From: Patescibacteria group bacterium
GTDB taxonomy: Bacteria > Patescibacteriota > Doudnabacteria > UBA920
Length of the DNA stretch: 57,592 nucleotides
Direction of reading: 5' to 3'
Assembly: GCA_038065175.1 (NCBI GenBank)
Contig: JBBTRN010000002.1
Location: forward strand, 1 to 57,592
Below, piece by piece: positions 22,016 through 40,510 of this stretch (positions within the stretch are counted from its first letter, which is position 1; every line of letters begins with the position of its first letter). The notes beneath the pieces were generated by a model. That model saw nothing but the letters and a program-made list of their open reading frames with translations. It was not told the DNA's origin and ran no database searches. A program made the translations under genes and the position numbers.

Positions 22016-23275
22016 ATGGCTAAGGGATCATACATAACAGGCCTTGACATCGGCACCGCTTACATTCGCGCTGTGCAGGGAAAGTTTACCCAAGAAACAG
22101 GGGAGCCTTTAAGCATTATTGGCGCAAGTGAAGTTATTAGCCAGGGTCTTAGAAAAGGTGTGCTTATAGACATTGAGGAAGCCGTTTCCTGCATTTCCCA
22201 GGCAATTGAGAAAATTGAAAGGATGACCGGAGTAGGGGTAACTTCCGTGAATGTATCGGTTTCCGGTAACCATATTTCTACTTTGCCCAGCCATGGGGTG
22301 ATTGCTGTTTCCAGGGCTGACGGCGAAATAACCGAAGCCGATGTGGTGAGGTGTATAGATGCCAGCCAGGCAATTTCCGTGCCCCAGAACCGGGAAATTT
22401 TGCATGTCTTCCCTAAGAATTTTACGCTCGATGGTCAGAGCGGAATAAAAGACCCCCATGGCATGAGCGGCGTCCGACTGGAGGTAGACACATTAATCGT
22501 CCAGGCCGGCTTGCCGTTTGTAAAAAATTTAACCCGTTCGGTTTCCCAGGCTGGTTTGGAAATCGGTGATTTGGTTTTATCGCCGCTCGCTACCGGCGAA
22601 GCGGTTTTGAGCAAGAGGCAAAAAGATTTGGGCGTTTGCGTGGTAGACTTGGGCGCGGGCACGACATCACTAGCGGTTTACGAAGAAGGGGAGCTTTTGC
22701 ATGCCGGCGTAATCCCCGTGGGCGGACAGCACATTACCAACGATTTAGCGATAGGCTTAAGATCATCTATTGAAGTGGCGGAAAAAGTAAAATTGATGTT
22801 CGGGCATTCGGACATTAAAGCCGTGGGCAAGAATGAGGAAATCCAATTAAGCCAATTTGAACCGGGCGAAACAGATTCCGTAATGCGGCATTATGCGGTG
22901 GAGATTATCCAGGCGCGGTTGGAGGAAATTTTTGACCTGGTGGCTAAGGAGCTTAAAAATATCGGCCGTGACGGCAAACTGCCGGCCGGCGTGGTTTTGA
23001 CCGGCGGGGGTAGCCGTTTGCCGAATGTGGTTGAATTTGCCAAAAAGCATTTGCGTTTGCCCGCGTCTTTGGGCAAAAGTCAGGGCATAAACACTGTAAT
23101 CGACAAGGTAGATGACCCGGGTTTTGCCACAGCTTTAGGTTTGGTTTTATGGGGTCAAAAATACGGGCAGGGACATAGCTTTAGCGCGGGGAGCATATTT
23201 TCTTCGGTAAAAAGAATGTTTGCGCACCCGGCAATGGAAAAAGCCAAGAAGTGGTTGAAATCTTTTATGCCGTAA
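22016..23275 (+). CDS. ftsA: Cell division protein FtsA
   Basis: Actin-fold phosphate motifs GLDIGTAYI, VVDLGAGTTSLAV and VLTGGGSRL. Length is 419 aa. Confidence 0.85.
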   Translation: MAKGSYITGLDIGTAYIRAVQGKFTQETGEPLSIIGASEVISQGLRKGVLIDIEEAVSCISQAIEKIERMTGVGVTSVNVSVSGNHISTLPSHGVIAVSRADGEITEADVVRCIDASQAISVPQNREILHVFPKNFTLDGQSGIKDPHGMSGVRLEVDTLIVQAGLPFVKNLTRSVSQAGLEIGDLVLSPLATGEAVLSKRQKDLGVCVVDLGAGTTSLAVYEEGELLHAGVIPVGGQHITNDLAIGLRSSIEVAEKVKLMFGHSDIKAVGKNEEIQLSQFEPGETDSVMRHYAVEIIQARLEEIFDLVAKELKNIGRDGKLPAGVVLTGGGSRLPNVVEFAKKHLRLPASLGKSQGINTVIDKVDDPGFATALGLVLWGQKYGQGHSFSAGSIFSSVKRMFAHPAMEKAKKWLKSFMP

Positions 23276-23455
23276 AGCGCCTTAAGTAAGCAAAAAATTA
23301 AGAAAATTTATAAACTTTAAAAGTTGACTGGAAATGTTGACGAGAGCAGAAAAGGGGTGAAATTTAGGGATGGATGAAATCGGGACGGAAGGAAGGTTTA
23401 AGTTTTTTATGCTTTATTGAAATAAAATAACACCCTTATTCGAGTATTTTTATAC

Positions 23456-23508
23456 AAAAAAAAGAAGGGACGATGGGCAGGCTGGTTGGCCGTTTCATCG
23501 TCCTCTTC
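23456..23508 (-). terminator. Rho-independent terminator of the high-GC minus-strand operon
   Basis: On the minus strand: gaagaggacgatg ... catcgtcccttc followed by T8. It marks the left edge of the GC-rich island. Confidence 0.65.
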
Positions 23509-23580
23509 AGGGTGATCTAGGTCGGGCGCGGGGTGGTCCCCGTCTAAAGCGCATTAGCTTTCGCATAATGCACCCCCTTC

Positions 23581-24630
23581 CTAGTATTCCATCTCAACTT
23601 TGGCGCCTTTGCTTTCCAGCAGCCACTTCCAGAAGGAGAGCGACTGCCGAATTTGGTCGGCATTGGCGCCGCTTTTGGGTCCGTACAGGTAGACCCATGT
23701 ACCTTTCAGATCCGGGCACTGGACTTTGCTCTGGAGCTTGTCCGCCACTTCTTGGTTTCCGCTTTTGGGCGGGCTCACATAGAAGTTACCGAGATCAGAG
23801 TTTTCGAGCCCGTCCGTAAACACCAGGACGGTTCGATTGCGTTTGCCGAGGTTCTTGGCCAGGGCGTTGAACAGCCCTGTTGCCAACGATGTCCGTGTTT
23901 TTGCTGGTTTCGGCGCCAACAGGTCATCTAGCTTTCTTCCGATTTTTCCGTAGGCGTGAGTGCCTTCGCCGGGTTCGGCTAGGGCTCTGTCGCTGTCCAG
24001 AAAGTCGGTGGCAGAAAGCCGGAACGTCCAGAAGTGGACGCCGTCGCCTGCCTTTAGCCGAGTGGGGATGTCGAGATTGTCGACTTCCCGAACGACTTGG
24101 TCGCGAAGCGTTTGGTCAATTCCACTGCTGTCGTCGACCATTACTTCATGAGTCCAAGTGCGGGGCTGGTATCGAGCGAACTCGGCCGTGACTTCTTGGA
24201 ACTCATTGATCTTTTTGAGTACCAGGGCACGCCGAGCCGGGCGGCTAACGTCTGCGGTCATTTTTTGCTTAGGGATAAAGAACGGGCGAACCCATTCGTC
24301 CTTCCCGCGGAAAGAAATGACGAACCGAGTTTCGTTGGTGCCATCGCCGTTGTTAAAGCGGCGAACAGCTTCCTCGGAAAAGATCGTCTCGACTTCAATG
24401 GTCGGGGCGGTCGAAAGCGCGTCGCGTTTGAATTCGGTCGGGATGGCGACACTTTGGGGTTCGCGGCTAGAACGAGCGTTCATAAACCAGATTATCCCAC
24501 CGACGAGGCCAAAGAACGCGAGAGCGAGGCCGAGAGCGAGCAACCACGGAAATTTTTTGTGGTTGCTGTTGGTCCGGCTGTTGGCAGCACGGACGCGAAT
24601 ATTTGGGCGTGGGGTATAACGAGGTATCAT
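23581..24630 (-). CDS. Membrane-anchored vWA-like domain protein (349 aa)
   Basis: Very basic N-terminus plus a single TM helix (WLLALGLALAFFGLVGGIIWF). The motifs VMVDDSSG ... TSLATGLFNAL ... VLVFTDGLEN occur in the order and spacing of a vWA MIDAS, although the DxSxS is degenerate. High GC. Confidence 0.5.
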   Translation of the reverse strand: MIPRYTPRPNIRVRAANSRTNSNHKKFPWLLALGLALAFFGLVGGIIWFMNARSSREPQSVAIPTEFKRDALSTAPTIEVETIFSEEAVRRFNNGDGTNETRFVISFRGKDEWVRPFFIPKQKMTADVSRPARRALVLKKINEFQEVTAEFARYQPRTWTHEVMVDDSSGIDQTLRDQVVREVDNLDIPTRLKAGDGVHFWTFRLSATDFLDSDRALAEPGEGTHAYGKIGRKLDDLLAPKPAKTRTSLATGLFNALAKNLGKRNRTVLVFTDGLENSDLGNFYVSPPKSGNQEVADKLQSKVQCPDLKGTWVYLYGPKSGANADQIRQSLSFWKWLLESKGAKVEMEY

Positions 24631-26168
24631 TAGAGTACGCCTCCGTCCGCCGGATTGTTCCAGCGAAATATCATTGCGCCCGACGAAGCGGCCTGTGCCG
24701 CTTCGGTTTGCACCTGCGCGAGGGTTTCAGCCTCGACAGGCGCGAAGTTGGTCACGCGAGCGTCAGCCGGCAGGTCAACCCGAGGGTCAAACTTTTCGGC
24801 TTCGGCAGTGAGGTCAGCGTCGTTTAGCGTTGGTAGGACAGAGCGAGAAAACAGCTCGTCGAGCTCACGGGTTGCGTCAGCATTGTCAAACAGTTTGATG
24901 TCTATGCTGGGAACGACCTTGGCGACCGCGTTGGCCGCCTCCTGAACCAAGGCATGGAAAGCGCGCCGAACGAGTTCAAACGCAGTCAGATACTGCTCCA
25001 CGAGGGAGAGGTACAGTGCGGCAAGCTCGCGGCGAGCGGAGCAATCGTTTGCCACAACAGCCGCGGCGTTATCAGCCGCTTCGTTGTAAATGCGGATTGC
25101 ATTCTCGCGTTCTTGCGGGTAGGGGTCATTGGGGTCGGTGGTGGAGAGTTCGGAAATTCTTGCACCCATGGCTTCATAATCTGCCACGAGCCTTTCGAAC
25201 TCTTGCTGATGCTCTTTGGCGTACTTCGGGGCGTGGCGTACCTCGGCGAGGTAATACACACCGGCCAAGACGGCCATAGCAACAGAACCAAACACCGCGT
25301 TCCAGCCGAATTCCTTTGGATTGGAAACGGCGAGGACGACGCGGAATGCAACCAGAATGAATGACCAGCCGAGGAGCGTGCGCTCCGACCAGCGAGCCAT
25401 CATCCAAATGGATTCTTCAACGGGTGTAACGTAAACGGGGTTGCCGTTCATGTCAAAGCACCCGCCTGCACATTTCTGCGCGTAAATCCGATGGGCATCT
25501 TCGTTGGCGTTGATGATCGCGCGGTTGACACCAGCGAAGTGGGATGTGAGCGCGAGAACGACAACGGTGATGAGCGACCAAGCAAGTGCGCTGTACGAAG
25601 TTCCTTCGAACTCGAACATGCCGTAGCCGGCCATTCCTTCGACCGCAATCAGCATTAGGAAGACGAAAGCCGCCATTACCCCGTGTACAAGGTAGTTCAC
25701 ATGGTGAATGACTGCATCCTGGTCTCCCGACATGCGGATTTTTTGCGACCAAATCGCGTCTTCCAGAATTGGCCTTTGCTCGGTGAGCTGGGCCAGCTCC
25801 AGTCCGCGCGCTTGATCACGCTCGAACTTGCGGGTGAGGATGGTGTAGAGCTGCTCCCGCAAATAAGCGAGCGAGGCGTCCAGGGTTAGGCGGTAGCCGG
25901 TTATGTGACCGGCGGGATTGAACAAGCGGATGGCCTCGCGCAGATTGCGCGCGGCAACCGTGAGCGAGGTGCAGGCGGAGTTCTCAAATCGTGTCCACAG
26001 CTCAGAGAGCCAAAACACGACTGTGGCGAACAGCGGGAGAAACCCAGAGTCTTTGCGGAATGTGGGGACCAGACCAGCGATCCGTCCCTTCTGCGCCGCA
26101 AGTTGTTGTCTAAGGCCGGCGGTGTTAATTTCCGGCCTCGTTTCTTGAACATTGTTGAGATGGTCCAT
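24630..26168 (-). CDS. Four-TM membrane protein with long helical N- and C-terminal domains (512 aa), unknown family
   Basis: AGGAGG lies 4 nt upstream of ATG 26168, and the ORF-track start at 26276 is rejected. TM pairs lie at about aa 195-260 and 300-345. The stop overlaps the downstream start (TAATG). Confidence 0.5.
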   Translation of the reverse strand: MDHLNNVQETRPEINTAGLRQQLAAQKGRIAGLVPTFRKDSGFLPLFATVVFWLSELWTRFENSACTSLTVAARNLREAIRLFNPAGHITGYRLTLDASLAYLREQLYTILTRKFERDQARGLELAQLTEQRPILEDAIWSQKIRMSGDQDAVIHHVNYLVHGVMAAFVFLMLIAVEGMAGYGMFEFEGTSYSALAWSLITVVVLALTSHFAGVNRAIINANEDAHRIYAQKCAGGCFDMNGNPVYVTPVEESIWMMARWSERTLLGWSFILVAFRVVLAVSNPKEFGWNAVFGSVAMAVLAGVYYLAEVRHAPKYAKEHQQEFERLVADYEAMGARISELSTTDPNDPYPQERENAIRIYNEAADNAAAVVANDCSARRELAALYLSLVEQYLTAFELVRRAFHALVQEAANAVAKVVPSIDIKLFDNADATRELDELFSRSVLPTLNDADLTAEAEKFDPRVDLPADARVTNFAPVEAETLAQVQTEAAQAASSGAMIFRWNNPADGGVL

Positions 26169-26289
26169 TTGTCCTCCTAGACATTTGGTAAAGAACTGTT
26201 GGTTAGAGAATTCTGCGTGTGGCGGTCTGCGCAAAATCCCCTTAAGCGAACTGCAAAAAAACTTGTGTAGCCACATTACTAATGTTTTT

Positions 26290-26326
26290 CACCCCCACCT
26301 AACCTCCCCCCTCAAGGGGGAGGAAA
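26290..26326 (+). repeat. GGGAGG-hairpin repeat (solo copy) in the 5' leader of the minus-strand operon
   Basis: cacccccacctaacctcccccctcaagggggaggaaa, located at the GC-rich/AT-rich boundary. Confidence 0.8.
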
Positions 26327-26394
26327 AAAACAGGAGATTAAAAACAACAGCAATGTAGCCGCAATTAATAAATAATATTTTATTTTAACCTCTG

Positions 26395-26424
26395 ATTATA
26401 ACACAAAATAGCTAAATTTGTCAA
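26395..26424 (-). promoter_or_regulatory. Consensus sigma70 promoter, minus strand (TTGACA-18-TGT-TATAAT)
   Basis: The reverse complement reads ttgaca aatttagctattttgtgt tataat with a TGn extended -10. It lies about 225 nt upstream of ATG 26168. Confidence 0.55.
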
Positions 26425-26504
26425 TAATTAGACCCTAAAACCCTTATTTATAAGGGAAAATTAATAATTTAGATTAAAAACAAGCCTGGATTAAGAGTTT
26501 ATTC

Positions 26505-26533
26505 TTGACATAATAGTTTATTTGTATTATAAT
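26505..26533 (+). promoter_or_regulatory. Consensus sigma70 promoter, plus strand (TTGACA-17-TATAAT)
   Basis: ttgaca at 26505-26510, a 17-nt spacer, tataat at 26528-26533. It lies about 335 nt upstream of ATG 26869. Confidence 0.55.
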
Positions 26534-26868
26534 GTTTAGTCATTATGCCGCAGTGTCGGCAGAGTGACACAGTTCTTTATAATTGTCCTTAAGGAGGATA
26601 TAAGCCCCAGTTAAATGAATCCAGACTTTGTTTGGGAATTTAACGGGGCAAGCGTTACTTATTTTACGCGGAGCATTCGCGGATTTAGATCGCAGACGCG
26701 GATTACGCGCTGAGCGGAAAAGAAATGTTAATTGCATGCTGAAAAAATTGGATACTGCAATTAGCCCCAAATTTATTTTTGGGATTAGTGGCAGTATCTA
26801 GTTTGATTTTTAGAACACGCCGCAAGGTGTGTCTCTATGGCAGTTAACGTTCAGGAAAAGGAAAGACA

Positions 26869-28497
26869 ATGTCTAACTACAAAAACCCCCTCGCACGTTT
26901 TTTTGGATTCGCGATTTGCGCGCTCGCGCTGATCGCGTCGTCCACAACCGCTTTTTCACAGACCCGCGATTACGACTTCGACAAGGACGGCAAGCCCGTT
27001 CAAGTCGGCGGCCCTGGGTTCACCCAGCAGCCGCAGGCGGCTCCGACCCCATTGCCGGCTCCCAAGCCGGACGAAGTGAAGCCGGGTTCGAGTTCCCCCA
27101 CCCCAAAGGCCGAGCCTGATAAGGGTGAAGCCAAAAAGGGAGGGGAGGAGAAAAAGTCCGAAGAGGCTACGACTCCATCTCCCGCGGCTCGCATCGGCGG
27201 CGCCATCCGTTCAGCCTTTCCGTGGATTTTGGGCGCTGTCGGTTTTATCGGTGTGGTAATCTTAGTGGTCGTGTTCCTGCGTTCGCGCAGGCAGGCGACT
27301 CCGCCCCCGCCGCGTCCGCACGCGCCTCCACCACCTCCCGCTCCCGGACCTCACGCTGCTCCGCGGCCCGTGGTTTCCCCGGCTCACCGTCCGCCTCCGG
27401 CCAGTGGGGTACCTGTTCGTCCGCCCGTTGCGGCGACTCCGCCCCCCTCTGGCCCAGCCGCACCCGCTCCGCCTGCAACGCCGGCTCCCGCGCCACCCGC
27501 AACACCTCCGGTCGTGGCTCCCATCGTCGCCCTGTTGTTCGCCGTGTTGTTCGCGGCGCAGGCGGCGTACTCGCAGGCGCAGTACACGGTGTTTCCGTCG
27601 GCCATCCCGGTCGGCGGCAGCATCAACGCCATCGTCACCGGGCCGAACGCCAACACCCTCACGGGTTGCGGCGTTGCCCTTCCGGACAGTGGCTGCTCGT
27701 TCTCACACGTGGTCTCCGCCACCCAGGTAATGGTTCGGCTCACTGCCGGACCCAACGCCATGGGCACGAACCCGCACCCGGTGCGCGGCACCCTTCGGTT
27801 GGTTTTCGGTGGCACAACCACCGTGAATTTGCCGAACGCAGTTGTGGTGGGCAAGTCGGAGCAAATTGGCACGGCGATGATCTCGCCACATGTCAATCCG
27901 GCACCTGCGCCAGCACCCCGTCCGACCTACATCGCCGGCGCTGACCGGACCGCACGCACTGCGGCCGAAGCGGCTATGAACGCCGCGAAAAACGCGCAGT
28001 CCGCGAATCGGTCGTTGGCTGATAAGCTGGAAGCAACAATGACGTTGCTCCAGAACGTGGACTCGCGACTGCAGGCTTTGGAAGGTCGTCCGCAGGTTGT
28101 GGGCGGGCTCCAGGACTCGCAAGTCCGGACTATCGTCAACGAAAGCGTTGATGGTCGGGTTGCCCTTTCACTCGCCCCGGTCCGCAAGGACCTGGACGAG
28201 CTGAAGGCTCGTGTGGACAAGGTTGAGCCGATTTTGACCGCGACGGCTGATGCTGTTGAAGCGGTCGGTGCGGCGGCGGATCATGGTGGCAGTTTTCTCG
28301 GTTTCGGCGGCGGACCTAAAAAATCCCTCCGTCAGGCCGCGACTGAAGCCAGGCTCCGCCTGGCGTGTGCCCGCGGAATCGTGACCAAGGGTTGCCCGGC
28401 TTCGCTGGGTACACCCGCGGCCACGGCCGCATCGGCACCGGTGGCCGCAAGCTCCGGAACCGCCCGCCTCTCGGGCGGCCGTGTTGACAAGAAGTAA
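26869..28497 (+). CDS. Proline-rich envelope protein with signal peptide, two further TM helices, an Ig-like region and a coiled coil (542 aa)
   Basis: Signal-like N-terminus FAICALALIASSTTAFSQ, TM helix WILGAVGFIGVVILVVVFL, a Pro-rich block of about 70 aa (PPPPRPHAPPPPPAPGP...), and a second signal-like helix IVALLFAVLFAAQAAYSQ. The C-terminal part has heptad-like helices. High GC. Confidence 0.55.
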   Translation: MSNYKNPLARFFGFAICALALIASSTTAFSQTRDYDFDKDGKPVQVGGPGFTQQPQAAPTPLPAPKPDEVKPGSSSPTPKAEPDKGEAKKGGEEKKSEEATTPSPAARIGGAIRSAFPWILGAVGFIGVVILVVVFLRSRRQATPPPPRPHAPPPPPAPGPHAAPRPVVSPAHRPPPASGVPVRPPVAATPPPSGPAAPAPPATPAPAPPATPPVVAPIVALLFAVLFAAQAAYSQAQYTVFPSAIPVGGSINAIVTGPNANTLTGCGVALPDSGCSFSHVVSATQVMVRLTAGPNAMGTNPHPVRGTLRLVFGGTTTVNLPNAVVVGKSEQIGTAMISPHVNPAPAPAPRPTYIAGADRTARTAAEAAMNAAKNAQSANRSLADKLEATMTLLQNVDSRLQALEGRPQVVGGLQDSQVRTIVNESVDGRVALSLAPVRKDLDELKARVDKVEPILTATADAVEAVGAAADHGGSFLGFGGGPKKSLRQAATEARLRLACARGIVTKGCPASLGTPAATAASAPVAASSGTARLSGGRVDKK

Positions 28498-28507
28498 CGC
28501 TTTTCCT

Positions 28508-28546
28508 TACCCCCTCCCTAACCCTCCCCCTTAACAGGGGAGGGAA
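28508..28546 (+). repeat. GGGAGG-hairpin repeat (solo, diverged copy) right after the 542-aa gene
   Basis: taccccctccctaaccctcccccttaacaggggagggaa. Confidence 0.7.
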
Positions 28547-29027
28547 TAGCAGGCGGTGACGGAACATAAACATTGGAAGAGGGGAATGGCACTGCTATTT
28601 CCCTCTCTCCTCTCTAAAAAATTAGGATTTGGAATTTAGGGTAAAAGGTATATACTTTATATCCTGAAACTAGAATCTTAAAAATACCTCCGGTTAAATG
28701 ATTTGCTTGGCAAATCAACCCGCCTTTGGCGGATTATTTAACGGGGTAAACAAGGAGGAATATAAACCAATTCCAGTTTTTGGAATTGGGAAATTTTAGA
28801 TTTGGCAGATTAGCTTCTCGACAGGCTCGAAGGTTATGCACGGATGAGCAAGTAAAGACATCTTAGAGATAAAAATAGATCCCGGATCCCCAGTAGTAGT
28901 TCTCGACAAGCTCGAACACTACGGGGCAAGCAAGTCCGGGATGACAGAAAGGTGTTTTTTCTTGCTCGTCCGGCATCCCTGAAGTTTAGGGAAATTCAAC
29001 CGGACGGCGAGAAAGGAGGGTAGCGAG

Positions 29028-29981
29028 ATGCCTTTGATCTTTGCAATTCTCCTGTTTTTGTCCGCCGGTTTGGGGGTCGCACAGACTTCCACCGGCAAAG
29101 TGTTTTTTGCAACGCCCGAGGCTTGCCTCGCGGCTCCGCTAGACAACTCCTCGATCGTTTATCAACCGAGCTTTAACAATTTGCTTGGGTGGTGGACGGA
29201 AAAGTGGGAGCTTGGAACTGCGCAAAAAGTCGAGGGTCATAACAAGACCTTCTGTGCAGAGGAGCAGACTGTGGAGGGCAAGCAAATTATCCGTTGGCCC
29301 AAAAACAATCCGTTCTTTACAGCCGGAAGCCGCAAGGCTGACGGCCGGTGCGGCAATGAGGTTTATAGGCTTTGGGAAGTTTCCGAGCCTGTGTTTCAAC
29401 CAGTAGTAGTAGTACCGCCCGTTGCAGTCGCTCCGGCTTCGCCCGCACCACCTTCGCATGTCTGTCCGGAGTGCGGCGATGTTACTTGGGCTGTGAACCA
29501 GCCTGGGGTGATATCGAAAGTCGAGAACGGAACACTTGTTCTCGGCTCGGTGGTTCTCCACAGCGACTTGCGCCTTAATTTGACGTTCTCGTTTACCGAG
29601 GGCGTAGAGGAAGGCCGCATTTTGGCAGGGGACACGGTTCTGGCCGGCGGAAATGCCGTGGACATTACTTCTGCGGATGGTCCGGAACCGGGGGTGTACG
29701 ATATTGTTGCGGAAGGCCGGGACTCGGACGGTCACATTGTCCGTTGCCGGGTTCGTATCACGTTTGTGGCTCCTGCGCTACCCGCTCCTGTCCTTATTAC
29801 CGTCGAAAAAAAGAAGGGGAGGAAATTCCCAATCCCGTGTATCCCACGGGAGAAAACGTGGTTCGGCATCGGCGTCCCCGTTCTTGAGTGTGCGGCCATC
29901 GTTGGCGGCGTATGGGCAATCTGGCCTGTCGCCGAAGCCTTCAAGCACGGCGCTGCTGTGCTGGTCGGACTTGTGCTCTAA
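29028..29981 (+). CDS. Secreted, C-terminally anchored protein with Ig-like region (317 aa)
   Basis: AGGAGG lies 8 nt upstream. Signal peptide IFAILLFLSAGLGVAQ, a Cys-containing N-domain, a Pro/Val linker, a beta-rich segment (GVYDIVAEGRDSDGHIVRCRVRITF) and a hydrophobic C-terminus. High GC. Confidence 0.55.
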   Translation: MPLIFAILLFLSAGLGVAQTSTGKVFFATPEACLAAPLDNSSIVYQPSFNNLLGWWTEKWELGTAQKVEGHNKTFCAEEQTVEGKQIIRWPKNNPFFTAGSRKADGRCGNEVYRLWEVSEPVFQPVVVVPPVAVAPASPAPPSHVCPECGDVTWAVNQPGVISKVENGTLVLGSVVLHSDLRLNLTFSFTEGVEEGRILAGDTVLAGGNAVDITSADGPEPGVYDIVAEGRDSDGHIVRCRVRITFVAPALPAPVLITVEKKKGRKFPIPCIPREKTWFGIGVPVLECAAIVGGVWAIWPVAEAFKHGAAVLVGLVL

Positions 29982-30046
29982 ACTGGGCAAAAACGGCAGC
30001 GTTCAACCAGGACGCCGCTACGGCAAATCTAAAATGTAGGAATCTT

Positions 30047-30087
30047 GGCCCGGGCGCGACTAATTATCGTTCCCGGGTCTTGTTTTT
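30047..30087 (+). terminator. Hairpin (ggcccggg...cccgggtc) plus T-run at the right edge of the island
   Basis: A 7/8-bp stem with an 18-nt loop followed by ttgttttt. Confidence 0.4.
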
Positions 30088-30142
30088 ATCAATAATCTTT
30101 TATCGCCTCTTCTTTTCATTTTGGTTTTTTTATGGTTTAATA

Positions 30143-30315
30143 TATATAGGGACTGTTGCGGAATGTCATTTTTGCCCAAAACGATCTGCTTTGGCAAAAT
30201 TCCTAAAAAAATTCTTCCGCTTACCTTTCAGGTAAACATCAAAATTTGTTTTAGAAATTTTACTCAAATCATATCATTTTGCATCAAAAAGCCCATTCGG
30301 CAACAGTCCCATATA
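30143..30315. other. 173-nt long-hairpin element, second copy of the family at 17794-17957
   Basis: The terminal arms tatatagggactgttgcggaatg / cattcggcaacagtcccatata are complementary. The apex at 30204-30252 matches 17851-17899. It ends 18 nt before ATG 30334. Confidence 0.6.
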
Positions 30316-30333
30316 AGATTTGTCCCTAATAAT

Positions 30334-32631
30334 ATGCCAGAAACACAAAATAGCAATCCAAGCGAATTAGGCTTAGAACACCAGCCGCCCGCCCCTCACC
30401 CAACCGAAAGCCCAGACAATCGAAAAGTTGTGCCAGTAGAGGAAGGGAGGCAAGGCTTAAAGTCTAAACAGCGTAAAAACATTCGGTTAACAGACATAAG
30501 AGCCACAGAAATGCCTGATTCCAAGGGTGAGTTTGATAAGGATAATAATCCATTGGGCAGGGTCCGTTACGAAGTCAGAATTGACGCGCCCGGTAAAGGT
30601 AAAGTTTACAGGCGAACCGTGAAATTTATTGTGCCAAGAGTTGACCAGAAAAATTTTTTAGATGCACGAAAAAAAGAGACTATTAATTTTCATAGCCAGG
30701 ATATAGTTGACCAATACCGCAGATATAAAAATGAACATAGGGGTCGGCTTGTGCCCTGGAATAAGGATCGCTGGCTAACTGAGAAAGAGTTTGAGGAAGG
30801 TTTAGAGGAGTCGGGTTATGACATTGGGATGAACCGGTGGCAAAGCACTCAAGCAGACAGCGTTGAGCAGGTAATTGCCAGGATGCTCAAGCAGAATAAT
30901 TTTGATTTATTGCCCAGCGGTATTAGTTTAGATAAGCCCCTTTTAGACAAAAAGCGGCAATTGCGATTTTATATTGACGGCAGGGAATTTAACGCACCGC
31001 TTGCGGAAGTTGAGACCCGCGTTAAAACGGTATTTGGCCTATTGCAGGCGAGCCAGGAGCAAAATTTAAATTTATACGAAAATCTAATCCGTTTTAGGCA
31101 AATGGATTTTAACAAAATTTTAAGATTACCAGACGGCAATGAAAAAAAATTAGCTTTACAGGTCTTGGGCGTATTTGCGGGCATTCCAATTAAGGTTCTG
31201 CAAAAAGCCAAACAACTGGTGAACAATGGCGAGGCTGAAGATTTATTTGAGGAATATGAGCGGGTTAAAATTAAAGAACGCCAATTGGCTTCTACGCATG
31301 GACGGCGGCCTAGGGCTCGGAGGTTTTTAAGCCAAAAAGAACAGAATATAATAGACGTATTTGAAACTTTGGGCTTGAAGCTAAGGGGTAAAGACGGTTT
31401 TAGCTTTGCTACGGCAGGGGTGAACCAAGCTTTTTTAAAAAGATTAAGGCGTGAACCATGGGAGCATTTGGAAGAAAAAACACAGAGCCTTTTAGACGAA
31501 GCCCGCGAGAGCGTAAAAACATTAAATTTAAAGAAATTGGGATTCAAAGGCCTCCAAAAAGAGTTGGAAAGCGCCAATTTAAGCCAGCAGGAACAGAATG
31601 TAATGTATATTGCCGCGATTTTAGAAACTGGCCATAGCGCCAGATATATATTGGATGATTTTTGTAAAAAAGATTTACTGGAGCATTTTCCGGTTTTAGA
31701 AGTTAACCGTACCGCGGCCAGAATTGCTTTGGATTTATATAAAACAACGGTGGAAAAAAAATCTTTGCCGGAATTTCAGGACAAGCCGATTTTTGAGGCA
31801 AATGCCAGCCAAGCCTTTAAGGATCCGAATGACAAACGGCCGCAAAGCTTGGGTTTTGTAGCAAGAAAACAAGTTCAGGTTTTAACCGGCAGGCAATTCG
31901 TGGAAGTGTCCATTGCAAGACCTGCGGTCAAAGCAGGCCAAAACGCGGACAGAGACAGGGTTTTCCGTTTACCTAAAGACAGTTCGGTTGTTGGTTCCTT
32001 AGGAGCGGCTAAAACTTTGCAAAACCAAGTGGCGGATATTTTTTGGCGGCGGGCAAGGGAGGAAGGCCAGCGTTTTAGTTTTGTGCCGCACATTGAGCTG
32101 TTGAAGGGCAAGGCAAAGCAGAATCCTAAATTCCGCCTAACTTTAGGCACGAGTTCGGGAGAGGTTGATTATAAGACTTTCTATGAATCTTTAAGTTTTG
32201 AAAATAAAGTTAAGGTTGAAGTGTTGAAAGCAACCTACTTAGATAACAAAAAAAACCGGGGTGAGTGGTCAAAAGACACTAAAGAATGGCAAAAGCAGGC
32301 CGTGTATATGTTTCAGAATATTCTTTCTCACAGCGGGTTGCCCAGTTTAACCGAACAGCTTATAGTTTCGGAACTAAAAAAACACGGAGGAAAGCCAAGG
32401 GGTACGGTGGCCATATTGGACAAAGTCGGCAAAGTGATAAAAACGGGCGTTGAAAAAACAGCCAAAAAAGTTAGCCCAGATGAACCTATTATTCCAACTG
32501 GCATAATTAGCGCCAAAGATGTGGGATTGATTCTTGAAGAAAAGGCAAAACTCACCCGGAAAGCTCCAAAGGCTAAAGTAGTAAAAGCAAAACCTGATAT
32601 CCCAGCCAAAAAACGGGTTAAAAAGAAATGA
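30334..32631 (+). CDS. Large basic hypothetical protein (765 aa)
   Basis: Start set at MPETQNS (ATG 30334), because the ORF-track extension back to 30121 lies inside the hairpin element. No TM helix or signal peptide. Lys-rich C-terminal tail. Confidence 0.55.
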   Translation: MPETQNSNPSELGLEHQPPAPHPTESPDNRKVVPVEEGRQGLKSKQRKNIRLTDIRATEMPDSKGEFDKDNNPLGRVRYEVRIDAPGKGKVYRRTVKFIVPRVDQKNFLDARKKETINFHSQDIVDQYRRYKNEHRGRLVPWNKDRWLTEKEFEEGLEESGYDIGMNRWQSTQADSVEQVIARMLKQNNFDLLPSGISLDKPLLDKKRQLRFYIDGREFNAPLAEVETRVKTVFGLLQASQEQNLNLYENLIRFRQMDFNKILRLPDGNEKKLALQVLGVFAGIPIKVLQKAKQLVNNGEAEDLFEEYERVKIKERQLASTHGRRPRARRFLSQKEQNIIDVFETLGLKLRGKDGFSFATAGVNQAFLKRLRREPWEHLEEKTQSLLDEARESVKTLNLKKLGFKGLQKELESANLSQQEQNVMYIAAILETGHSARYILDDFCKKDLLEHFPVLEVNRTAARIALDLYKTTVEKKSLPEFQDKPIFEANASQAFKDPNDKRPQSLGFVARKQVQVLTGRQFVEVSIARPAVKAGQNADRDRVFRLPKDSSVVGSLGAAKTLQNQVADIFWRRAREEGQRFSFVPHIELLKGKAKQNPKFRLTLGTSSGEVDYKTFYESLSFENKVKVEVLKATYLDNKKNRGEWSKDTKEWQKQAVYMFQNILSHSGLPSLTEQLIVSELKKHGGKPRGTVAILDKVGKVIKTGVEKTAKKVSPDEPIIPTGIISAKDVGLILEEKAKLTRKAPKAKVVKAKPDIPAKKRVKKK

Positions 32632-32692
32632 GAAATTGACATTAATTGAAAATCATGGCATTTTTAAGGCAAATATTAAATAAAAAAATTTT

Positions 32693-33025
32693 ATGACTCA
32701 AAAAAATCAAAACACTACCAGCGCTCTGTCAGATCCTAATATAAAAGTTTTTGTGGAAAATTTGGTGGCGGAAAAAAACTTTACAGATGTGGAAGAAGAA
32801 GTTATGGCGCAAATAACAAAAGACTTGACTGATCGTGTCGAAGAAATTATTAATGCCGCAATTTTGGCGGCTATTCCTGCTGACAAACTGGAAGATTTTG
32901 ATAAACTTTTGCACACAGGGACTAGGCAGGAAATTGCGGCTTTTTGCGAAACCAATGTACCCAATTTGCAAGGGGTGGTGACAGAAGAATTAAGGGCGTT
33001 TAGGGAAACCTATTTGGGCGTTTAA
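32693..33025 (+). CDS. Small acidic helical protein (110 aa)
   Basis: An ORF of host composition between the two large genes. No domain recognised. Confidence 0.5.
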   Translation: MTQKNQNTTSALSDPNIKVFVENLVAEKNFTDVEEEVMAQITKDLTDRVEEIINAAILAAIPADKLEDFDKLLHTGTRQEIAAFCETNVPNLQGVVTEELRAFRETYLGV

Positions 33026-33062
33026 TTTTCCGTTTTATTTTTTATCGCTCATCGTTTATTAT

Positions 33063-36000
33063 ATGACAGAAAGGCCGGGCTTTAATTCCGAAGACTCCAT
33101 GAGGGAGTTTCAGGATCAGGACAAGCTTACAATCGGCTTAGCCGATATTACTTCGGCCGTGGAAGAGCGTTCTAAAGATGTTGCTTTAGACAAAGTTACC
33201 GAGAACGCCGAACAGCCAAAGGGTTTTTGGGCGCGGGCAAAAGGTTTAGTCAAGAATGTCTGGAAGCGCAGCGAGATGAACTTGACTCTGGAGCGCTACC
33301 GGGCGGAAAAGAAAATCCTTAAAGAAGGTTTGTACTCGCATTTAGAAGAAGAAGCTGGCAGTGACCAGGCAAAAAAGGCGGAAAGACAACAGGAAGCCAA
33401 AGAAGCTCAAGAACGCACAGTTAAGGCCACAGTGGACAGGTTCACCGTAAAGAGCGAATTTGAGGATCAATTTATACACAAAGAAGCAGGTGAGCATAGG
33501 GAAGAGCTTAACGATGCAAATTTACGCGGGCAAATTATTGGTTTGGTAAAAGCCTACGCCAGAGGCGAAGAAAGAGGCGGTATTACTGAAGAGCAATTTA
33601 ATATTGAAGTTAACAAGCTTTTTAATCCGGAAAGCCAGTTTGTCCGTGGACTAAAAAACACCAATCCCCAGGCCGTAGAAAAAGGCAAAATGTTCGCTCA
33701 TAATCTTTTGGATATTGCTAAAAAAGCCAAACAGATTATAACTAGGCAAGTTGAGCAAAATGTGGATTTACTGGCGGCCTTGGAAGGTTTGGATGAGCGG
33801 TTCCGAATTATGGTGGGTAAGGCCAAAGCCGGGGTCAGAACCGAGGCCCAGTATAACGCGGTTGATAGAATAACCAATTTTATTGTTAAACACACTGGCG
33901 GAGTTTTTACCGAACAGACCGTGGCCGTGGGGGTGGCCGCGGTTTACGGCGCTGCCACAAAGTTTGCTGGTGCGGCGTTTAGAAAAGCCTCTGGGATTTT
34001 AGGCGGCGCAGGAGCTTTGGCCGGCATGCAGGAGAGCAGGAGGCTCGAGAGGGAAAGAGCCCAGCACGCGCGTGAAATGGCCCAGGGGCGTAAGCTTAAG
34101 AGTCCGGATAAAGCTAAGCGCCGTAAAGAATTGGAAGAGTCCAGGATCCAATTTAAAAAATTTGGCGACATAAAGAACGATTTGGAAATTTCGGTCTTAA
34201 ACCGCGGCAGCGCAGAATTTTCTGAAGCGGAATATAATGAAGGTTTAAAAGTTTTGGCAGACTTGGAAGCCCGGGTTAAAGTCTCCAACCGCGGCATTTT
34301 AAATTCCGAAGTCTCCAAATGGAGGCTCATACAAAGAAATAAACGTTACAGGATAGATTTGATTGGCTATAGCGACGAGACAAATGTGGCTAAAGAACAG
34401 CAGGTTTTGGACATAATGCGCGCTAAGGCTAAAATTGAATTGGCCAAGTGGGCAACGGCGCACGGCAAGAATTTGGATCGTGATTTAGACCAGGCGGTGG
34501 AAGCCCAAATTACGAATCTCAAGCAGGGCGACCAAGGCATTTTAAAAAAGAATGAAATGTTTATTAGCCTTAAGCGCAAAAGGGTGTTTAAGGCCATTGC
34601 TAAAGGCATGCTAATTGGCGGTGCAATTGGCACAATTATGCAGGAGGCGCAAGCGTTTTGGAATGAAGGTCAATATGGCGTGGCTGAACATTTGGTGGAC
34701 AAGGTAAGGGGCATAAAGCATTTTGTCAAAAAGGGCGAAACTTCGACTATGCTCGAGGGTGCTTGGCAGAACGCGAGGGATTATTTTGACCCATCGGTCC
34801 ACGCGGCAAGTCCTCTCCACGATGAAATTTTAGGCTCCCGGACTTTTAGGATGCACGACGGCATAAAGTGGGCAGAGGACGCTTCGACTACAGGCAACAA
34901 CAATGATTTTTATTTAACGGACGCGAGCGGCAACCGTATAAGCGAAAATTTGGAATTGAACCCGGATAGGAGTTTGACTCCCGGGGCTAAACAGTGGCTT
35001 TTAGACCATGGGTACAATGTAGCTGATTTAGCCTCCAGCGCGGCTAAAGGCATGCACGGGCTGGATTTGGCGGAAACCCAAAAGCTGTTTCCTGACTTAG
35101 CGCAAAACGCAAGGGTAGACTGGCACGACAAACCGGGTGAGTTTTGGAGCGAGATTCATAAACAGTGGCTGGAATTTGAAGGCAAACAGCAAATGGGCTA
35201 TTTGGTCACGCGAGGAGATAAGGTTTTTTTGGATTGCAGTAAAGTGCTTGATAATTTTCTAAAAGAGATAGAACAGCGGGTAAATTCACCTGATTTCGGG
35301 CAGGTGGAAGGATATTTTAACGCTAACGGCACACCGTTTGTTGACCCAAAAATGATGCATTTAAAGGAGCGGATTATTGAGGCAATCAATAATGGCGACA
35401 TTCACCAGAAATTCCAGGCAGTTGTCATTCCAACGGAAGGCGCCAACGACGCCGGAATAAGCGACCTAATTGAAGGCGCTGACGCCCAGGGTATGATTGA
35501 GCTAAACGGGAAATATGACTGGTCAAAGATATTTATTGATCCGGCTACCGGCAAGATCGATCCGGCAAAACTCCATGACGGCAAACTTCCGTTCAGCTTT
35601 TTGGAAATGCGTTTTGACGGCCACGTAATGAATACAGTGAAGGGTTTGCCGGAAGTTGCCGGTATGCCAATTACCGAAATTTTACCACCCAGCGGAAATT
35701 TACCACCTACCACACTCTGGCCCTTCGGTGCCGCCTGGCCGAGAAGGGGAATTGAGGAAACGGAAAGGCCGCCAGGTATTTATCCTTACTATGGTGGGTT
35801 TGAAATCACGCCTGAAGAGAGAGCAAGAATGAGGCAGGATATGTCGCCACGGTTATTAGAGAATCCTGATGCCCGTTTGGATCCTTCGGTAGAAATTCCT
35901 TGGTACTTTTCTCAACAAGAAAATCGTTATTCGGGATACAGAAAAGAATTGGACAGGCTGAATGCCCAAATAAACCATCCTATGGGCTTAAATACAGAGG

Positions 36001-38060: not shown

Positions 38061-38442
38061 TTTTAGACTTTTGTGGCTCTCCTCCGCATTTAGTCATCTA
38101 AGAATGTTACTCGAACGCCGCAAAAAGTTAATAAAATTAGGCCTAATATATCGTTGCATTTTTCGGGATTTTTTTAACCCTAACAACGGCTACAAAATTC
38201 ATTATTCGCTTTGAAATCGGCCTTGGATTGATTTATTAAGAATTTAAGCATCAGTGCTTGGCAAAAGGGGTATCTAGGGTAACACCGCTCATGGCTCAAC
38301 CGAAGATGAGGTAGTAACAAATTACGTGGCTCAATTCGCTCCTCTTGTGTGAAGGTTATTTTTGTAGTATAGTATAAAATATAAAGGGAATTTGGTCGAT
38401 TTCCTTTAAATAATTTAATAAAAATAATTAAATTAAAAATAT

Positions 38443-39201: not shown

Positions 39202-39218
39202 AATTAATATAAAAATAT

Positions 39219-39560: not shown

Positions 39561-39580
39561 ATAGATATAATCAAATTTTA

Positions 39581-39606
39581 CAAAGCCCCGGGAATTCCCG
39601 GGGCTT
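39581..39606 (+). terminator. Rho-independent terminator (aaagccccgggaattcccggggcttt)
   Basis: A perfect palindromic GC-rich stem with flanking A and T residues. Confidence 0.65.
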
Positions 39607-39624
39607 TGGTTCGGGGTTTTTAGG

Positions 39625-39838: not shown

Positions 39839-39864
39839 CTCGGTTTTTATGGTACAGTTTTACT

Positions 39865-40465: not shown

Positions 40466-40510
40466 TTTGCTTTTTTATTTAGTTTTGCTATCCTGACTAT
40501 ATAAATTATC

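What the first reader, a model, noticed from the sequence alone, without database searches (positions are those of the whole stretch)
23581..26168. Translationally coupled pair: 4-TM protein with large helical domains plus membrane-anchored degenerate vWA protein
The 512-aa ORF has about 190 aa of helical N-terminal domain, two TM hairpins, a 50-aa Cys-containing loop and about 170 aa of helical C-terminal domain. Its stop overlaps the start of the 349-aa ORF in TAATG. The 349-aa protein has a strongly basic N-terminus, one TM helix and then VMVDDSSG ... TSLATGLFNAL ... VLVFTDGLEN, in the order and spacing of a vWA MIDAS fold with the second Ser lost. I recognise no enzymatic domain and no named two-gene family with this architecture. 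Two ideas are open: an adhesion or attachment module with an external vWA domain, or a membrane-acting conflict or defence effector with a vWA sensor. Both are speculation.
Basis: inference. Interest (0 to 1): 0.7.

Follow-up and report, generated by a model that had tools for sequence, protein, structure and literature searches.

The report
Uncharacterised membrane pair with external vWA
A candidate-phyla-radiation (CPR) bacterium carries a two-gene operon for a four-helix membrane protein and a partner with a von Willebrand A-type domain outside the cell; the pair matches no named family, recurs widely, is sometimes fused into one protein, and in one Bacteroidota lineage sits inside a CRISPR immunity operon.

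Summary
On the minus strand, geneA (26168..24630, 512 aa) and geneB (24630..23581, 349 aa) overlap in TAATG. They form a two-gene operon with a consensus promoter, a structured leader and a terminator.

GeneB's model (pLDDT 92.8) hits only vWA domains in Foldseek. No sequence model detects this. Its metal site is a conserved variant, not a decayed one: D-x-[T/S]-x-G … [S/T] … D-G-x-E-N, at 92-100% in 87 relatives.

GeneA is all-helical with four TM helices and an invariant membrane Glu (E177). It has no structural or sequence relative in any library searched.

An exhaustive search found 257 geneB relatives. In every locus with upstream sequence, a geneA-like gene abuts geneB. Proteins of 630-710 aa fuse both halves (hhalign E 8.6e-9), with an extra TM segment between them. 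This puts the vWA domain outside and geneA's domains inside.

Short versions occur in Bacteroidota, in a mobile element and inside a type III CRISPR-Cas operon. In the CPR clade the pair is GC3-rich, evolves faster than ftsA and has decayed in one relative.

I read it as a new two-subunit trans-membrane module, probably accessory or conflict-related. Its function is unproven.

The parts
26395..26424 (-). Consensus sigma-70-type promoter of the geneA-geneB operon (TTGACA-18-TATAAT with an upstream TG)
   Evidence: One search gives 12/12 hexamer matches. A divergent perfect promoter at 26505-26533 (+) faces the 542-aa gene. The same divergent pair of perfect promoters is present in syntenic L001.
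26169..26394 (-). Structured 5' leader, about 226 nt. It holds the invariant block ATGTGGCTACACA (about 26276-26264), a GC hairpin at 26323-26303, and the Shine-Dalgarno AGGAGG at 26178-26173.
   Evidence: RNA fold of -78 kcal/mol, z = -4.9. No Rfam match. The block is invariant in the window, L001 and L010.
24630..26168 (-). geneA: 512-aa polytopic membrane protein with an N-terminal helical domain (aa 17-147), a 4-TM core and a C-terminal helical/coiled-coil domain (aa 318-496)
   Evidence: AF2 model with pLDDT 81, all-helical. Family alignments A1 and A9.
25233..25694 (-). geneA TM core (aa 159-312): two TM hairpins joined by a 51-aa loop. It holds the invariant E177 and G181 at the outer end of TM1 and the conserved outer-loop motif EGMAGYxMFEFEG.
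   Evidence: This region aligns with the fusion proteins and the short-type partners.
24628..24632 (-). TAATG stop/start overlap of geneA and geneB. GeneB's own GGAGG lies at 24644-24640.
   Evidence: Tight abutment or overlap is conserved in relatives.
23581..24630 (-). geneB: 349-aa signal-anchored (N-in) protein with an extracytoplasmic domain
   Evidence: AF2 model with pLDDT 92.8 and pTM 0.81.
24469..24549 (-). geneB TM anchor helix (aa 28-54), preceded by a basic cytoplasmic tail (aa 1-27)
   Evidence: A TM helix is present in 84/87 relatives, and only 2 carry an acidic residue in it. The N-side is more positive than the C-side, +1.69 versus +0.67.
24175..24468 (-). geneB membrane-proximal alpha+beta subdomain (aa 55-152) with conserved R69, G95 and R133
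23584..24159 (-). geneB vWA-fold domain (aa 158-349) with a variant MIDAS: D166-x-S168-x-G170, T247/S248, D273-G-L-E276-N277
   Evidence: Foldseek top 50 hits are all vWA, E down to 1.5e-5, probability 1.0. Secondary-structure order. Column conservation.
23456..23508 (-). Intrinsic terminator after geneB: a 12-bp stem followed by U8
   Evidence: -22 kcal/mol, z = -5.4.

Best explanation
The two genes encode the two subunits of one trans-membrane module.

GeneA is an inner-membrane protein with both ends and its central loop in the cytoplasm. It has two large helical/coiled-coil domains. Its four TM helices expose only two short, conserved loops outside and carry an invariant glutamate near the outer end of TM1.

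GeneB is inserted N-in by a signal anchor. Just outside the membrane it displays a small alpha+beta subdomain and a vWA-fold domain. The metal-ion site of that domain is a conserved variant with Gly in place of the second MIDAS serine.

The proteins are made from one transcript and are inferred to assemble through their TM helices and geneA's outer loops.

Proposed working, all inferred: the external vWA site binds a ligand or cation in the wall space. That event passes through the Glu-containing TM core. The core either changes ion flux across the membrane or repositions the cytoplasmic coiled-coil domains.

The biological role is most likely accessory and conflict-related (envelope surveillance, defence, or mobile-element function). 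It is less likely to be core housekeeping.

Shown: the operon, the topology logic, the vWA fold, the conserved pairing and the fusions.
Inferred: physical complex formation, ligand binding, signalling or ion flux, and the conflict role.
For: Operon: promoter, leader, overlapping genes and terminator.

vWA fold. The variant MIDAS is conserved at 92-100%. The conserved residues sit where MIDAS residues sit in the fold: the end of beta1 and the beta1-alpha1 loop, the N-terminus of alpha3, and the end of beta4.

Pairing: in W, L001, L004/L010, L005, L009, L011 and L013 a geneA-like protein (helical domain, 4 TM, helical domain) ends within 16 nt of geneB or overlaps it. L007, L008 and L012 show an abutting upstream ORF fragment.

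Fusions: P0131, P0132, P0148 and P0157 carry both halves. hhalign of the geneA family against their N-halves gives probability 95.7%, E 8.6e-9, over 262 columns. A TM/lipobox-like segment lies between the halves, which puts the vWA domain on the opposite face from geneA's C-domain.

External location: short relatives of geneB are lipoproteins with an L..C lipobox. Positive-inside counts agree.

Conflict or accessory signals:
- The short-type pair lies inside a Saprospiraceae type III CRISPR-Cas operon, between the Cmr genes and Card1. Its 438-aa partner is homologous to the fusions' geneA half (E 8e-11).
- Another short-type pair lies in an element with a TraG-type coupling protein, relaxase, ArdC and integrase, with SIR2_2 nearby.
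- In the CPR clade the pair has GC3 of 0.65 against about 0.45.
- The pair evolves faster than FtsA, with discordant relationships.
- It lies in a hypervariable stretch between ftsA and ftsZ.
- In L003 it is decaying next to a transposase.
Against: No experiment or complex model supports assembly.

PADLOC finds no defence family for any variant.

No nuclease, cyclase, CARF/SAVED domain or MoxR partner is present.

The CRISPR context is one evolutionary instance, since L015-L018 are near-identical. It concerns a distant short-type homologue whose direct similarity to CPR geneA is not significant.

In the window's clade the pair is syntenic next to ftsA. The fusions sit among housekeeping genes. 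Both facts fit a constitutive envelope role equally well.

The higher GC could partly reflect amino-acid composition, because GC1 is also raised.
Confidence: 0.4

Rival explanations
1. Attachment module. The external vWA domain is an adhesin that binds a host-cell or matrix ligand for the episymbiotic lifestyle of CPR bacteria, and geneA is its membrane scaffold.
For: The vWA domain is extracytoplasmic. Many Foldseek neighbours are adhesive vWA domains such as the integrin I-domain, SpaC pilus adhesin, TRAP and CMG2. The long form is found in CPR MAGs (Saccharibacteria, Doudnabacteria). Neighbouring island genes encode secreted, Pro-rich membrane proteins.
Against: The domain is tethered within a few residues of the membrane (TM helix to aa 54, fold begins near aa 60). 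It would therefore sit beneath the wall or S-layer. Homologous domains in diderm Bacteroidota are 240-aa lipoproteins, found in CRISPR and mobile-element contexts. Nothing explains the roughly 360 aa of conserved cytoplasmic helical domains or the invariant TM Glu in geneA.
Confidence: 0.15
2. Constitutive envelope or division-associated complex. The pair is a lineage-specific housekeeping membrane complex, for example for divalent-cation sensing or homeostasis or for wall organisation. It would be linked to the division cluster, because it lies between ftsA and ftsZ.
For: The position next to ftsA-yqeY-rpsU is conserved in four related loci. ftsZ lies 17 kb further on. The fusions sit among housekeeping genes such as IF-2, RNase Y, NusA and the H+-PPase. 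The pair is retained in very small genomes. A metal-site vWA plus a TM carboxylate would suit cation sensing.
Against: The link to ftsA is clade-specific. L005, L009 and L011 have other neighbours. GeneA is truncated in L003. The pair diverges faster than FtsA, with discordant relationships and anomalous GC3. The surrounding genes are not conserved.
Confidence: 0.2
3. Ion-driven stator-like machine. GeneA and geneB form a MotAB/ExbBD/TolQR/ZorAB-type assembly. A ring of the polytopic subunit would surround single-pass subunits whose external domain is anchored outside, converting ion flow into movement of the cytoplasmic coiled coils.
For: The gene order and overlap are the same. The polytopic subunit has two TM hairpins, short outer loops and large cytoplasmic parts. 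The partner is N-in and single-pass, with a short basic tail and an external globular domain. GeneA has an invariant membrane carboxylate, E177, as GldL has in the GldLM motor (own knowledge). ExbB appears in the Foldseek list at rank 45.
Against: The ExbB hit is not significant (E 0.86, TM 0.17), and no MotA, TolQ, ZorA or GldL structure scores better. No Pfam MotA_ExbB, ExbD, MotB or OmpA hit appears in any family member. Only 2 of 84 geneB TM helices hold an acidic residue, so the defining TM Asp of the single-pass subunit is absent.
Confidence: 0.1
4. SLATT-like pore-forming suicide effector. GeneA's TM hairpins would be relatives of the 2-TM SLATT effector domain and would open a lethal pore when triggered, with geneB as regulator.
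For: Marginal SLATT_fungal matches cover TM3-TM4 plus the following helix, over nearly the whole model, in 2 of 9 geneA-family members (E 0.03-0.1). One SLATT_5 match occurs in a fusion (E 0.006). A short-type pair sits next to Cas10 and Card1.
Against: All scores are far below the gathering thresholds. The Pfam and NCBIfam models are the same family, so they are not independent. The SLATT_5 match falls in coiled coil, not in the TM region. No internal duplication of the two hairpins is detectable. No SMODS, SLOG or other nucleotide-generating partner lies in the CPR loci.
Confidence: 0.08

Closest known systems
Membrane-anchored bacterial vWA proteins of the BatA/BatB (aerotolerance operon) type
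   Same: Both have an N-terminal TM anchor followed by a single vWA-fold domain. The B. fragilis aerotolerance-related protein 4jdu is among the top structural hits (rank 5, E 5e-5).
   Different: Bat-type proteins match the Pfam VWA models, keep a canonical DxSxS MIDAS, and are encoded with a MoxR AAA+ ATPase (own knowledge). Here no VWA model matches, the MIDAS has a conserved Gly in place of the second Ser, no MoxR gene is nearby, and the obligatory partner is a 4-TM coiled-coil protein.
vWA-MoxR-VMAP and iSTAND ternary conflict systems (Kaur et al. 2020, PMC7159879)
   Same: Both use a vWA domain in conflict-associated gene neighbourhoods, and some of those vWA components have N-terminal TM segments. 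vWA-related genes with TM proteins have been noted near CRISPR loci (PMC10910872).
   Different: Those systems are defined by an NTPase (MoxR) and a third component with effector domains. None of these is present here. The partner here is a polytopic membrane protein, and the vWA domain faces outward.
MotAB / ExbBD / TolQR / ZorAB stator-type pairs
   Same: Two overlapping genes. The polytopic subunit has cytoplasmic domains and short outer loops. The single-pass N-in subunit has an external globular domain.
   Different: There is no sequence or fold similarity. The single-pass subunit has no TM Asp. The external domain is vWA, not a peptidoglycan-binding OmpA-like or ExbD-type domain.
Extracellular vWA auxiliary subunits of ion channels (alpha2delta/Cachd1, CLCA1)
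   Same: An external MIDAS-type vWA domain is associated with a multi-TM partner. The CLCA1 and Cachd1 vWA domains are among the Foldseek hits (ranks 4, 7, 16 and 30).
   Different: These are eukaryotic and are not homologous beyond the shared vWA fold. It is not known whether geneA conducts ions. This is an analogy only.
Membrane ancillary effectors of type III CRISPR (Cam1, Csx23, CorA; PMC11229360)
   Same: A short-type homologous pair is encoded inside a type III operon next to Card1. Like those effectors, it is a membrane protein with cytoplasmic soluble domains.
   Different: No CARF, SAVED or known nucleotide-sensor domain was detected. No such pair is listed in the survey read. The window itself has no CRISPR-Cas genes.

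Membership tests
[quoted passage not shown] | Alpha/beta fold in the order beta1-alpha1-beta2-beta3-alpha2-alpha3-beta4-alpha4-beta5-alpha5-beta6, and structural similarity to solved vWA domains | tested here: met
   The AF2 model has pLDDT 92.8, with elements E158-166, H173-193, E197-205, E212-218, H224-237, H249-259, E266-271, H293-299, E311-316, H324-340 and E344-348. All 50 top Foldseek PDB hits are vWA domains, E 1.5e-5 to 2e-3, probability about 1.0, TM(target) 0.36-0.57 for single-domain targets.
[quoted passage not shown] | Significant match to curated vWA sequence models or to vWA sequences of solved structures | tested here: not met
   No Pfam or NCBIfam hit for geneB. Only 1 of 87 relatives touches VWA_2, at E 0.0065. 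Profiles A3 and A4 hit no vWA chain in the PDB at E <= 10.
[quoted passage not shown] | Complete MIDAS motif DxSxS ... T ... D | tested here: not met
   Four of five positions are conserved: D166 100%, T/S168 100%, S/T247 100%, D273 99%. The second Ser is Gly in 93% of 87 relatives. E276 (92%) and N277 (87%) are additionally conserved. Metal binding itself is not testable here.
MoxR-associated vWA systems (BatA/B, vWA-MoxR-VMAP, RavA-ViaA, NorQ-NorD) | A MoxR-type AAA+ ATPase gene in the same neighbourhood | tested here: not met
   No AAA+/MoxR hit among the neighbours in the window or in 12 related loci.
MotAB/ExbBD/TolQR/ZorAB stator-type pairs | Polytopic subunit followed by a single-pass N-in subunit with an external domain, with adjacent or overlapping genes | tested here: met
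   This is a resemblance in architecture only.
MotAB/ExbBD/TolQR/ZorAB stator-type pairs | Conserved protonatable Asp in the TM helix of the single-pass subunit | tested here: not met
   An acidic residue is present in only 2 of 84 geneB-family TM helices.
MotAB/ExbBD/TolQR/ZorAB stator-type pairs | Sequence or fold similarity of the polytopic subunit to MotA/ExbB/TolQ | tested here: not met
   No MotA_ExbB Pfam hit in 9 geneA-family members at E <= 0.5. The best Foldseek hit to ExbB is at rank 45, E 0.86, TM 0.17.
SLATT (SMODS- and SLOG-associating 2TM effector) domains | Match to a SLATT model at or above its curated threshold | tested here: not met
   SLATT_fungal scores 13 bits against a cutoff of 26.5 (E 0.1) for geneA. 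The best in the family is E 0.028, in 2 of 9 members. SLATT_5 scores 16 bits against 29.5 in one fusion, in a coiled-coil region.
SLATT (SMODS- and SLOG-associating 2TM effector) domains | Association with nucleotide-signal-generating or -sensing genes | tested here: inconclusive
   Absent in the window and the CPR loci. Present for one distant short-type pair, beside Cas10/Cmr2 and Card1.
Type III CRISPR ancillary membrane effectors | Encoded within a type III CRISPR-Cas locus | tested here: not met
   The window has no cas genes near the pair. The feature is met only for the Saprospiraceae short-type homologue, L017/L018.
Type III CRISPR ancillary membrane effectors | A recognisable second-messenger sensor domain (CARF, SAVED or the Csx23 type) | tested here: not met
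   No such Pfam hit in geneA, geneB, the fusions or the short forms. A novel sensor cannot be excluded with these tools.

The most novel reading that the evidence does not exclude
The pair defines a previously unrecognised and widespread class of two-subunit trans-envelope devices. One subunit is a 4-TM protein with a buried glutamate and cytoplasmic coiled coils. The other is an outward-facing vWA domain with a variant metal site. The device would act as an envelope-sensing defence or conflict effector. It has been recruited as an ancillary module by a type III CRISPR system and by mobile elements in Bacteroidota. In genome-reduced CPR bacteria it is kept as a rapidly exchanged, GC-anomalous cassette.
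Probability: 0.28. Interest if true: 0.8.

Novelty: new variant of a known kind. Interest (0 to 1): 0.62.

Why it matters
CPR/Patescibacteria genomes are small and mostly unannotated. Conserved membrane modules in them are candidates for how these cells sense or defend their envelope or deal with hosts.

This work makes three advances:
- It turns two 'hypothetical proteins' into a defined family pair, with a testable topology and specific residues to mutate (E177 in geneA; D166, T/S168, D273 and E276 in geneB).
- It finds natural fusions that argue for a physical complex.
- It links the pair to cultivable Bacteroidota relatives, including one inside a type III CRISPR operon.

If the conflict reading holds, the pair would add a membrane effector type with an outward-facing sensor domain, which is unusual among known defence systems. 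If it does not hold, the pair is still a new vWA subfamily with a conserved non-canonical metal site and a partner whose fold matches no solved structure.

Tried and rejected
1. Curated HMM libraries for both proteins and their neighbours (Pfam, NCBIfam, PADLOC, PHROGs) gave nothing above threshold.

2. PDB sequence searches with shallow and deep profiles gave no relevant hit.

3. Foldseek of geneA against the PDB and the viral BFVD library gave only non-specific coiled-coil or membrane hits, with E >= 0.006 and TM < 0.25.

4. The first hhalign of the shallow geneA alignment (A1) against the fusions was negative. It became significant only with the more diverse alignment A9. The direct comparison of A9 with the L014 short-type partner stayed non-significant. 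That link therefore rests on the chain through the fusions. TM-rich alignments can inflate such scores.

5. No internal duplication of geneA's two TM hairpins was detected.

6. I looked for a recently acquired prophage or integrative island. There is no flanking tRNA, no convincing direct repeats, and no viral or phage relatives. Synteny in relatives argues against a recent single insertion.

7. I looked for a conserved third gene. None is shared across the subtypes. Only the 542-aa neighbour is shared, within the close clade. The fusions have their own conserved upstream gene of about 390 aa.

8. No Rfam family matches the leader.

Scans with A8 found only 2 loci in each collection. Plasmid and phage tblastn searches were negative.

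10. Literature searches found no description of this pair.
Full report
**1. The observation**

The two ORFs lie on the minus strand. GeneA runs 26168..24630 (512 aa) and geneB runs 24630..23581 (349 aa). GeneA's TAA and geneB's ATG share one base inside TAATG at 24632-24628, and GGAGG lies 9 nt before geneB's ATG.

AGGAGG precedes it, and the block CTAGGAGGACA is conserved in the syntenic locus L001. The upstream in-frame extension to 548 aa is not conserved as protein.

The unit is a clean two-gene operon:
- A 12/12 sigma-70-type promoter with an extended -10 at 26424-26395.
- A leader of about 226 nt that folds far better than shuffles (z = -4.9) and matches no Rfam family.
- The two genes.
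- A strong stem-loop plus U8 terminator at 23508-23456 (z = -5.4).

**2. GeneB**

Hydropathy and charge give a basic 28-residue tail, one TM helix and about 300 residues beyond it. Across 87 relatives, 84 have this TM helix, and the N-side is the more positive. This implies an N-in, C-out orientation.

An AlphaFold2 model built on an 87-sequence alignment is very confident (pLDDT 92.8, pTM 0.81). It shows a TM helix (aa 28-54), a small alpha+beta subdomain (aa 55-152) and an alternating beta/alpha domain (aa 158-349).

Foldseek against the PDB returns only vWA domains in the top 50. These include Rpn10, CMG2, CLCA1, a B. fragilis aerotolerance-related membrane protein, integrin I-domains, NorD, factor B and TRAP. 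E-values run from 1.5e-5 to 2e-3 with probability about 1.0.

By sequence the relationship is invisible:
- Pfam and NCBIfam give no hit.
- 1 of 87 relatives grazes VWA_2.
- Neither the shallow nor the deep profile finds any vWA chain in the PDB.

The metal-site residues are not decayed. D166 is invariant, position 168 is T/S in 100%, position 170 is Gly in 93%, position 247 is S/T in 100%, D273 is 99%, E276 is 92% and N277 is 87%. They fall at the end of beta1 and the beta1-alpha1 loop, the start of alpha3 and the end of beta4, which is where MIDAS residues sit. This is a conserved variant MIDAS, D-x-[T/S]-x-G ... [S/T] ... D-G-x-E-N.

**3. GeneA**

The model (pLDDT 81, pTM 0.54) is entirely helical:
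- An N-terminal helical domain (aa 17-147, with a 63-residue helix).
- TM1 and TM2 joined by a 10-residue loop.
- A 51-residue loop with a small hairpin.
- TM3 and TM4 joined by a 9-residue loop.
- About 200 residues of long helices.

The short loops have almost no K/R, and the flanks of the long segments are basic. A 158-residue N-terminal domain with no signal sequence is unlikely to be exported. The soluble parts are therefore assigned to the cytoplasm by inference.

Neither the PDB nor the BFVD library holds a significant structural neighbour, and no sequence library matches. The only recurrent whisper is SLATT_fungal at E 0.03-0.1 in 2 of 9 members. That is well below threshold.

Across a diverse 9-member alignment the invariant residues are G148, E177, G181, L272, Y361, A368, Y393, P467 and F475. 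E177 lies near the outer end of TM1. It is also present at the aligned position in the fusion and short-type relatives.

**4. How widespread, and is the pairing real?**

The word-index searches found only six clusters for each protein, all unnamed. The window's own protein is labelled as from a Patescibacteria MAG.

An exhaustive HMM search with the geneB profile found 257 proteins at E <= 1e-3 and 92 at E <= 1e-10. They fall into three architectures:

(i) A long type of 330-430 aa, built as in the window. Where named, these are from Candidatus Saccharibacteria and Doudnabacteria.

(ii) Fusion proteins of 630-711 aa. They carry an N-terminal coiled coil, four TM helices, a second helical domain, a TM/lipobox-like segment and a geneB-like domain.

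(iii) Lipoproteins of about 240 aa with an L..C lipobox that match the C-terminal part. Where named, these are from Saprospiraceae and Kordia.

In every locus with upstream sequence, a geneA-like gene ends within 16 nt of geneB or overlaps it. This holds for W, L001, L004/L010, L005, L009, L011 and L013. L007, L008 and L012 show an abutting ORF fragment. In L003 only a truncated geneA remnant remains, beside a DDE transposase.

With the diverse geneA alignment, the N-halves of the fusions are homologous to geneA (hhalign probability 95.7%, E 8.6e-9, 262 columns across all four TM helices). The earlier shallow alignment had failed to show this.

The short-type upstream genes match the fusions' N-halves (E 1.6e-6, 1.7e-7 and 8e-11). 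They do not match the CPR family directly. That link is a chain of homology and carries the usual caveat for TM-rich alignments.

The fusions are Rosetta-stone evidence that the two proteins work together. The extra TM segment between the halves independently places the vWA domain on the opposite face from geneA's C-terminal domain.

**5. Context**

In the window's clade the pair sits next to ftsA-yqeY-rpsU-HIT-hisS. ftsZ lies 17 kb further on, and the stretch between holds only unannotated genes. Apart from the 542-aa neighbour, these are not conserved even in L001.

The pair and two neighbouring genes form a GC-rich block. GC3 is 0.59-0.69, against 0.40-0.53 for most other genes in the window. 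The same tendency appears in other loci.

The pair is 40-62% identical among the four syntenic loci, where FtsA is 66-82% identical. The relationships are discordant: FtsA groups L001 with L004, while geneA and geneB group the window with L001.

There is no tRNA, no flanking repeat and no viral relative.

More distant CPR pairs have other neighbours and no MoxR, cyclase or nuclease. The fusions lie among housekeeping genes, with a conserved unannotated gene of about 390 aa upstream.

The short type occurs in two contexts:
- In an element carrying a TraG-type coupling protein, relaxase, ArdC and integrase, with SIR2_2 nearby.
- Inside a Saprospiraceae type III CRISPR-Cas operon, in the order Cas6b, Cas10/Cmr2, RAMPs, a 196-aa gene, the 438-aa geneA-like gene, the 243-aa geneB-like gene, Card1, MJ1673, a PIF1-type helicase, Cas1 and Cas2, all on one strand.

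L015-L018 are near-identical to one another, so the CRISPR context counts as one evolutionary instance.

**6. Interpretation**

Shown:
- An operon.
- A confident vWA fold with a conserved variant metal site on a signal-anchored protein.
- A partner of unknown fold with four TM helices, an invariant membrane Glu and large helical domains.
- Conserved adjacency over wide divergence.
- Natural fusions.

Inferred:
- The two proteins form a complex spanning the membrane.
- The external vWA site binds a ligand or cation.
- The event is transmitted through the Glu-containing TM core, to change ion flux or to reposition the cytoplasmic coiled coils.

I favour an accessory, conflict-related role. The evidence is the CRISPR and mobile-element contexts of the short type, and the fast, discordant, GC-anomalous, sometimes decaying behaviour in CPR.

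The evidence is contextual, and PADLOC is negative for every variant. My confidence in the whole statement is 0.4. For the structural and complex part alone I would say about 0.8.

Rivals:
- A constitutive envelope or division-linked complex (0.2).
- An adhesin (0.15), weakened by the short tether and by the lipoprotein forms.
- A MotAB/ExbBD-like stator (0.1). The architecture fits, but the defining TM Asp and any fold or sequence similarity are absent.
- A SLATT-like pore (0.08).

**7. Comparison and novelty**

GeneB is a new, sequence-divergent subfamily of the vWA fold. It works like a membrane-tethered MIDAS-type binding domain, but it fails two of the three membership features tested: a sequence-model match and a complete MIDAS.

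The two-gene module matches no described system in the libraries or in the papers read. The nearest published remark is a general note that vWA-related genes with TM proteins occur near CRISPR loci (PMC10910872).

I rate it 'new variant of a known kind', meaning a membrane-anchored vWA module. GeneA may prove to be a new fold family, and the module as a whole could turn out to be a new kind of system.

Noticed in passing
window 23500-30000: Four consecutive genes form a GC-rich block: geneB, geneA, the 542-aa gene at 26869-28497 and the 317-aa gene at 29028-29981. GC3 is 0.59-0.69, against 0.40-0.53 for most other genes in the window (one gene at the window's edge, 304-1221, reaches 0.57). The intergenic spacers stay AT-rich. 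Homologous pairs in L001, L010, L011 and L007 are also GC-richer than their contigs. The cause is unknown; exchange from higher-GC donors or selection on codon use are possibilities.
   Followed up: partly
window 22016-41743: ftsA (22016-23275) and ftsZ (40511-41743), normally neighbours, are separated by about 17 kb of genes with no family match. These include proteins of 836, 1665 and 252 aa. The large proteins are not conserved even in the closest syntenic locus, so the region is hypervariable.
   Followed up: partly
window 26160-26440 (minus strand); L001 9720-10010; L010 5090-5380: GeneA's long leader holds an invariant 13-nt block, ATGTGGCTACACA, in the 3' arm of a long stem. The fold has z = -4.9 and there is no Rfam family. 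Divergent perfect promoters are conserved in the window and in L001. This may be an unrecognised regulatory RNA element.
   Followed up: partly
window 26303-26323 and 28523-28543: Near-identical GC-rich palindromes, CCTCCCCC..GGGGGAGG, occur in geneA's leader and just after the stop of the 542-aa gene (I4). The one in the leader is absent from L001.
   Followed up: no
window 26869-28497 (+): The 542-aa protein is transcribed divergently from geneA. It has a signal peptide, two very Pro-rich stretches (local GC up to 0.74), a TM helix at aa 119-137, a second hydrophobic segment at aa 215-237, a domain conserved in L001 (51-65% identity over aa 215-387) and a coiled-coil tail. No family matches.
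   Followed up: partly
L003 412-804 and 2908-3747: In this relative, geneA is reduced to a 130-aa remnant (TM4 plus part of the C-domain, ending out of frame) upstream of an intact geneB. A DDE transposase lies just downstream. The pair is therefore dispensable in at least one lineage.
   Followed up: partly
L017 1-16375 (Saprospiraceae MAG GCA_054681935.1); L018: A type III CRISPR-Cas operon carries the short-type pair between the Cmr genes and Card1, together with an unannotated 196-aa membrane protein, an MJ1673-family protein and a PIF1-type helicase. This is a candidate new ancillary module.
   Followed up: partly
L006 4743-5900; L019 128-1312: The geneA-geneB fusion genes are each preceded by an unannotated gene of about 390 aa. 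The two copies are 27% identical to each other (E 1e-27). This may be a third component specific to the fused form.
   Followed up: no
L014 1213-9144: The short-type pair lies in a mobilisable or conjugative element, directly upstream of a TraG/TrwB-type coupling protein, a relaxase, ArdC and an integrase. SIR2_2 lies nearby on the longer contig. An entry-exclusion or transfer-related role for this version cannot be excluded.
   Followed up: no
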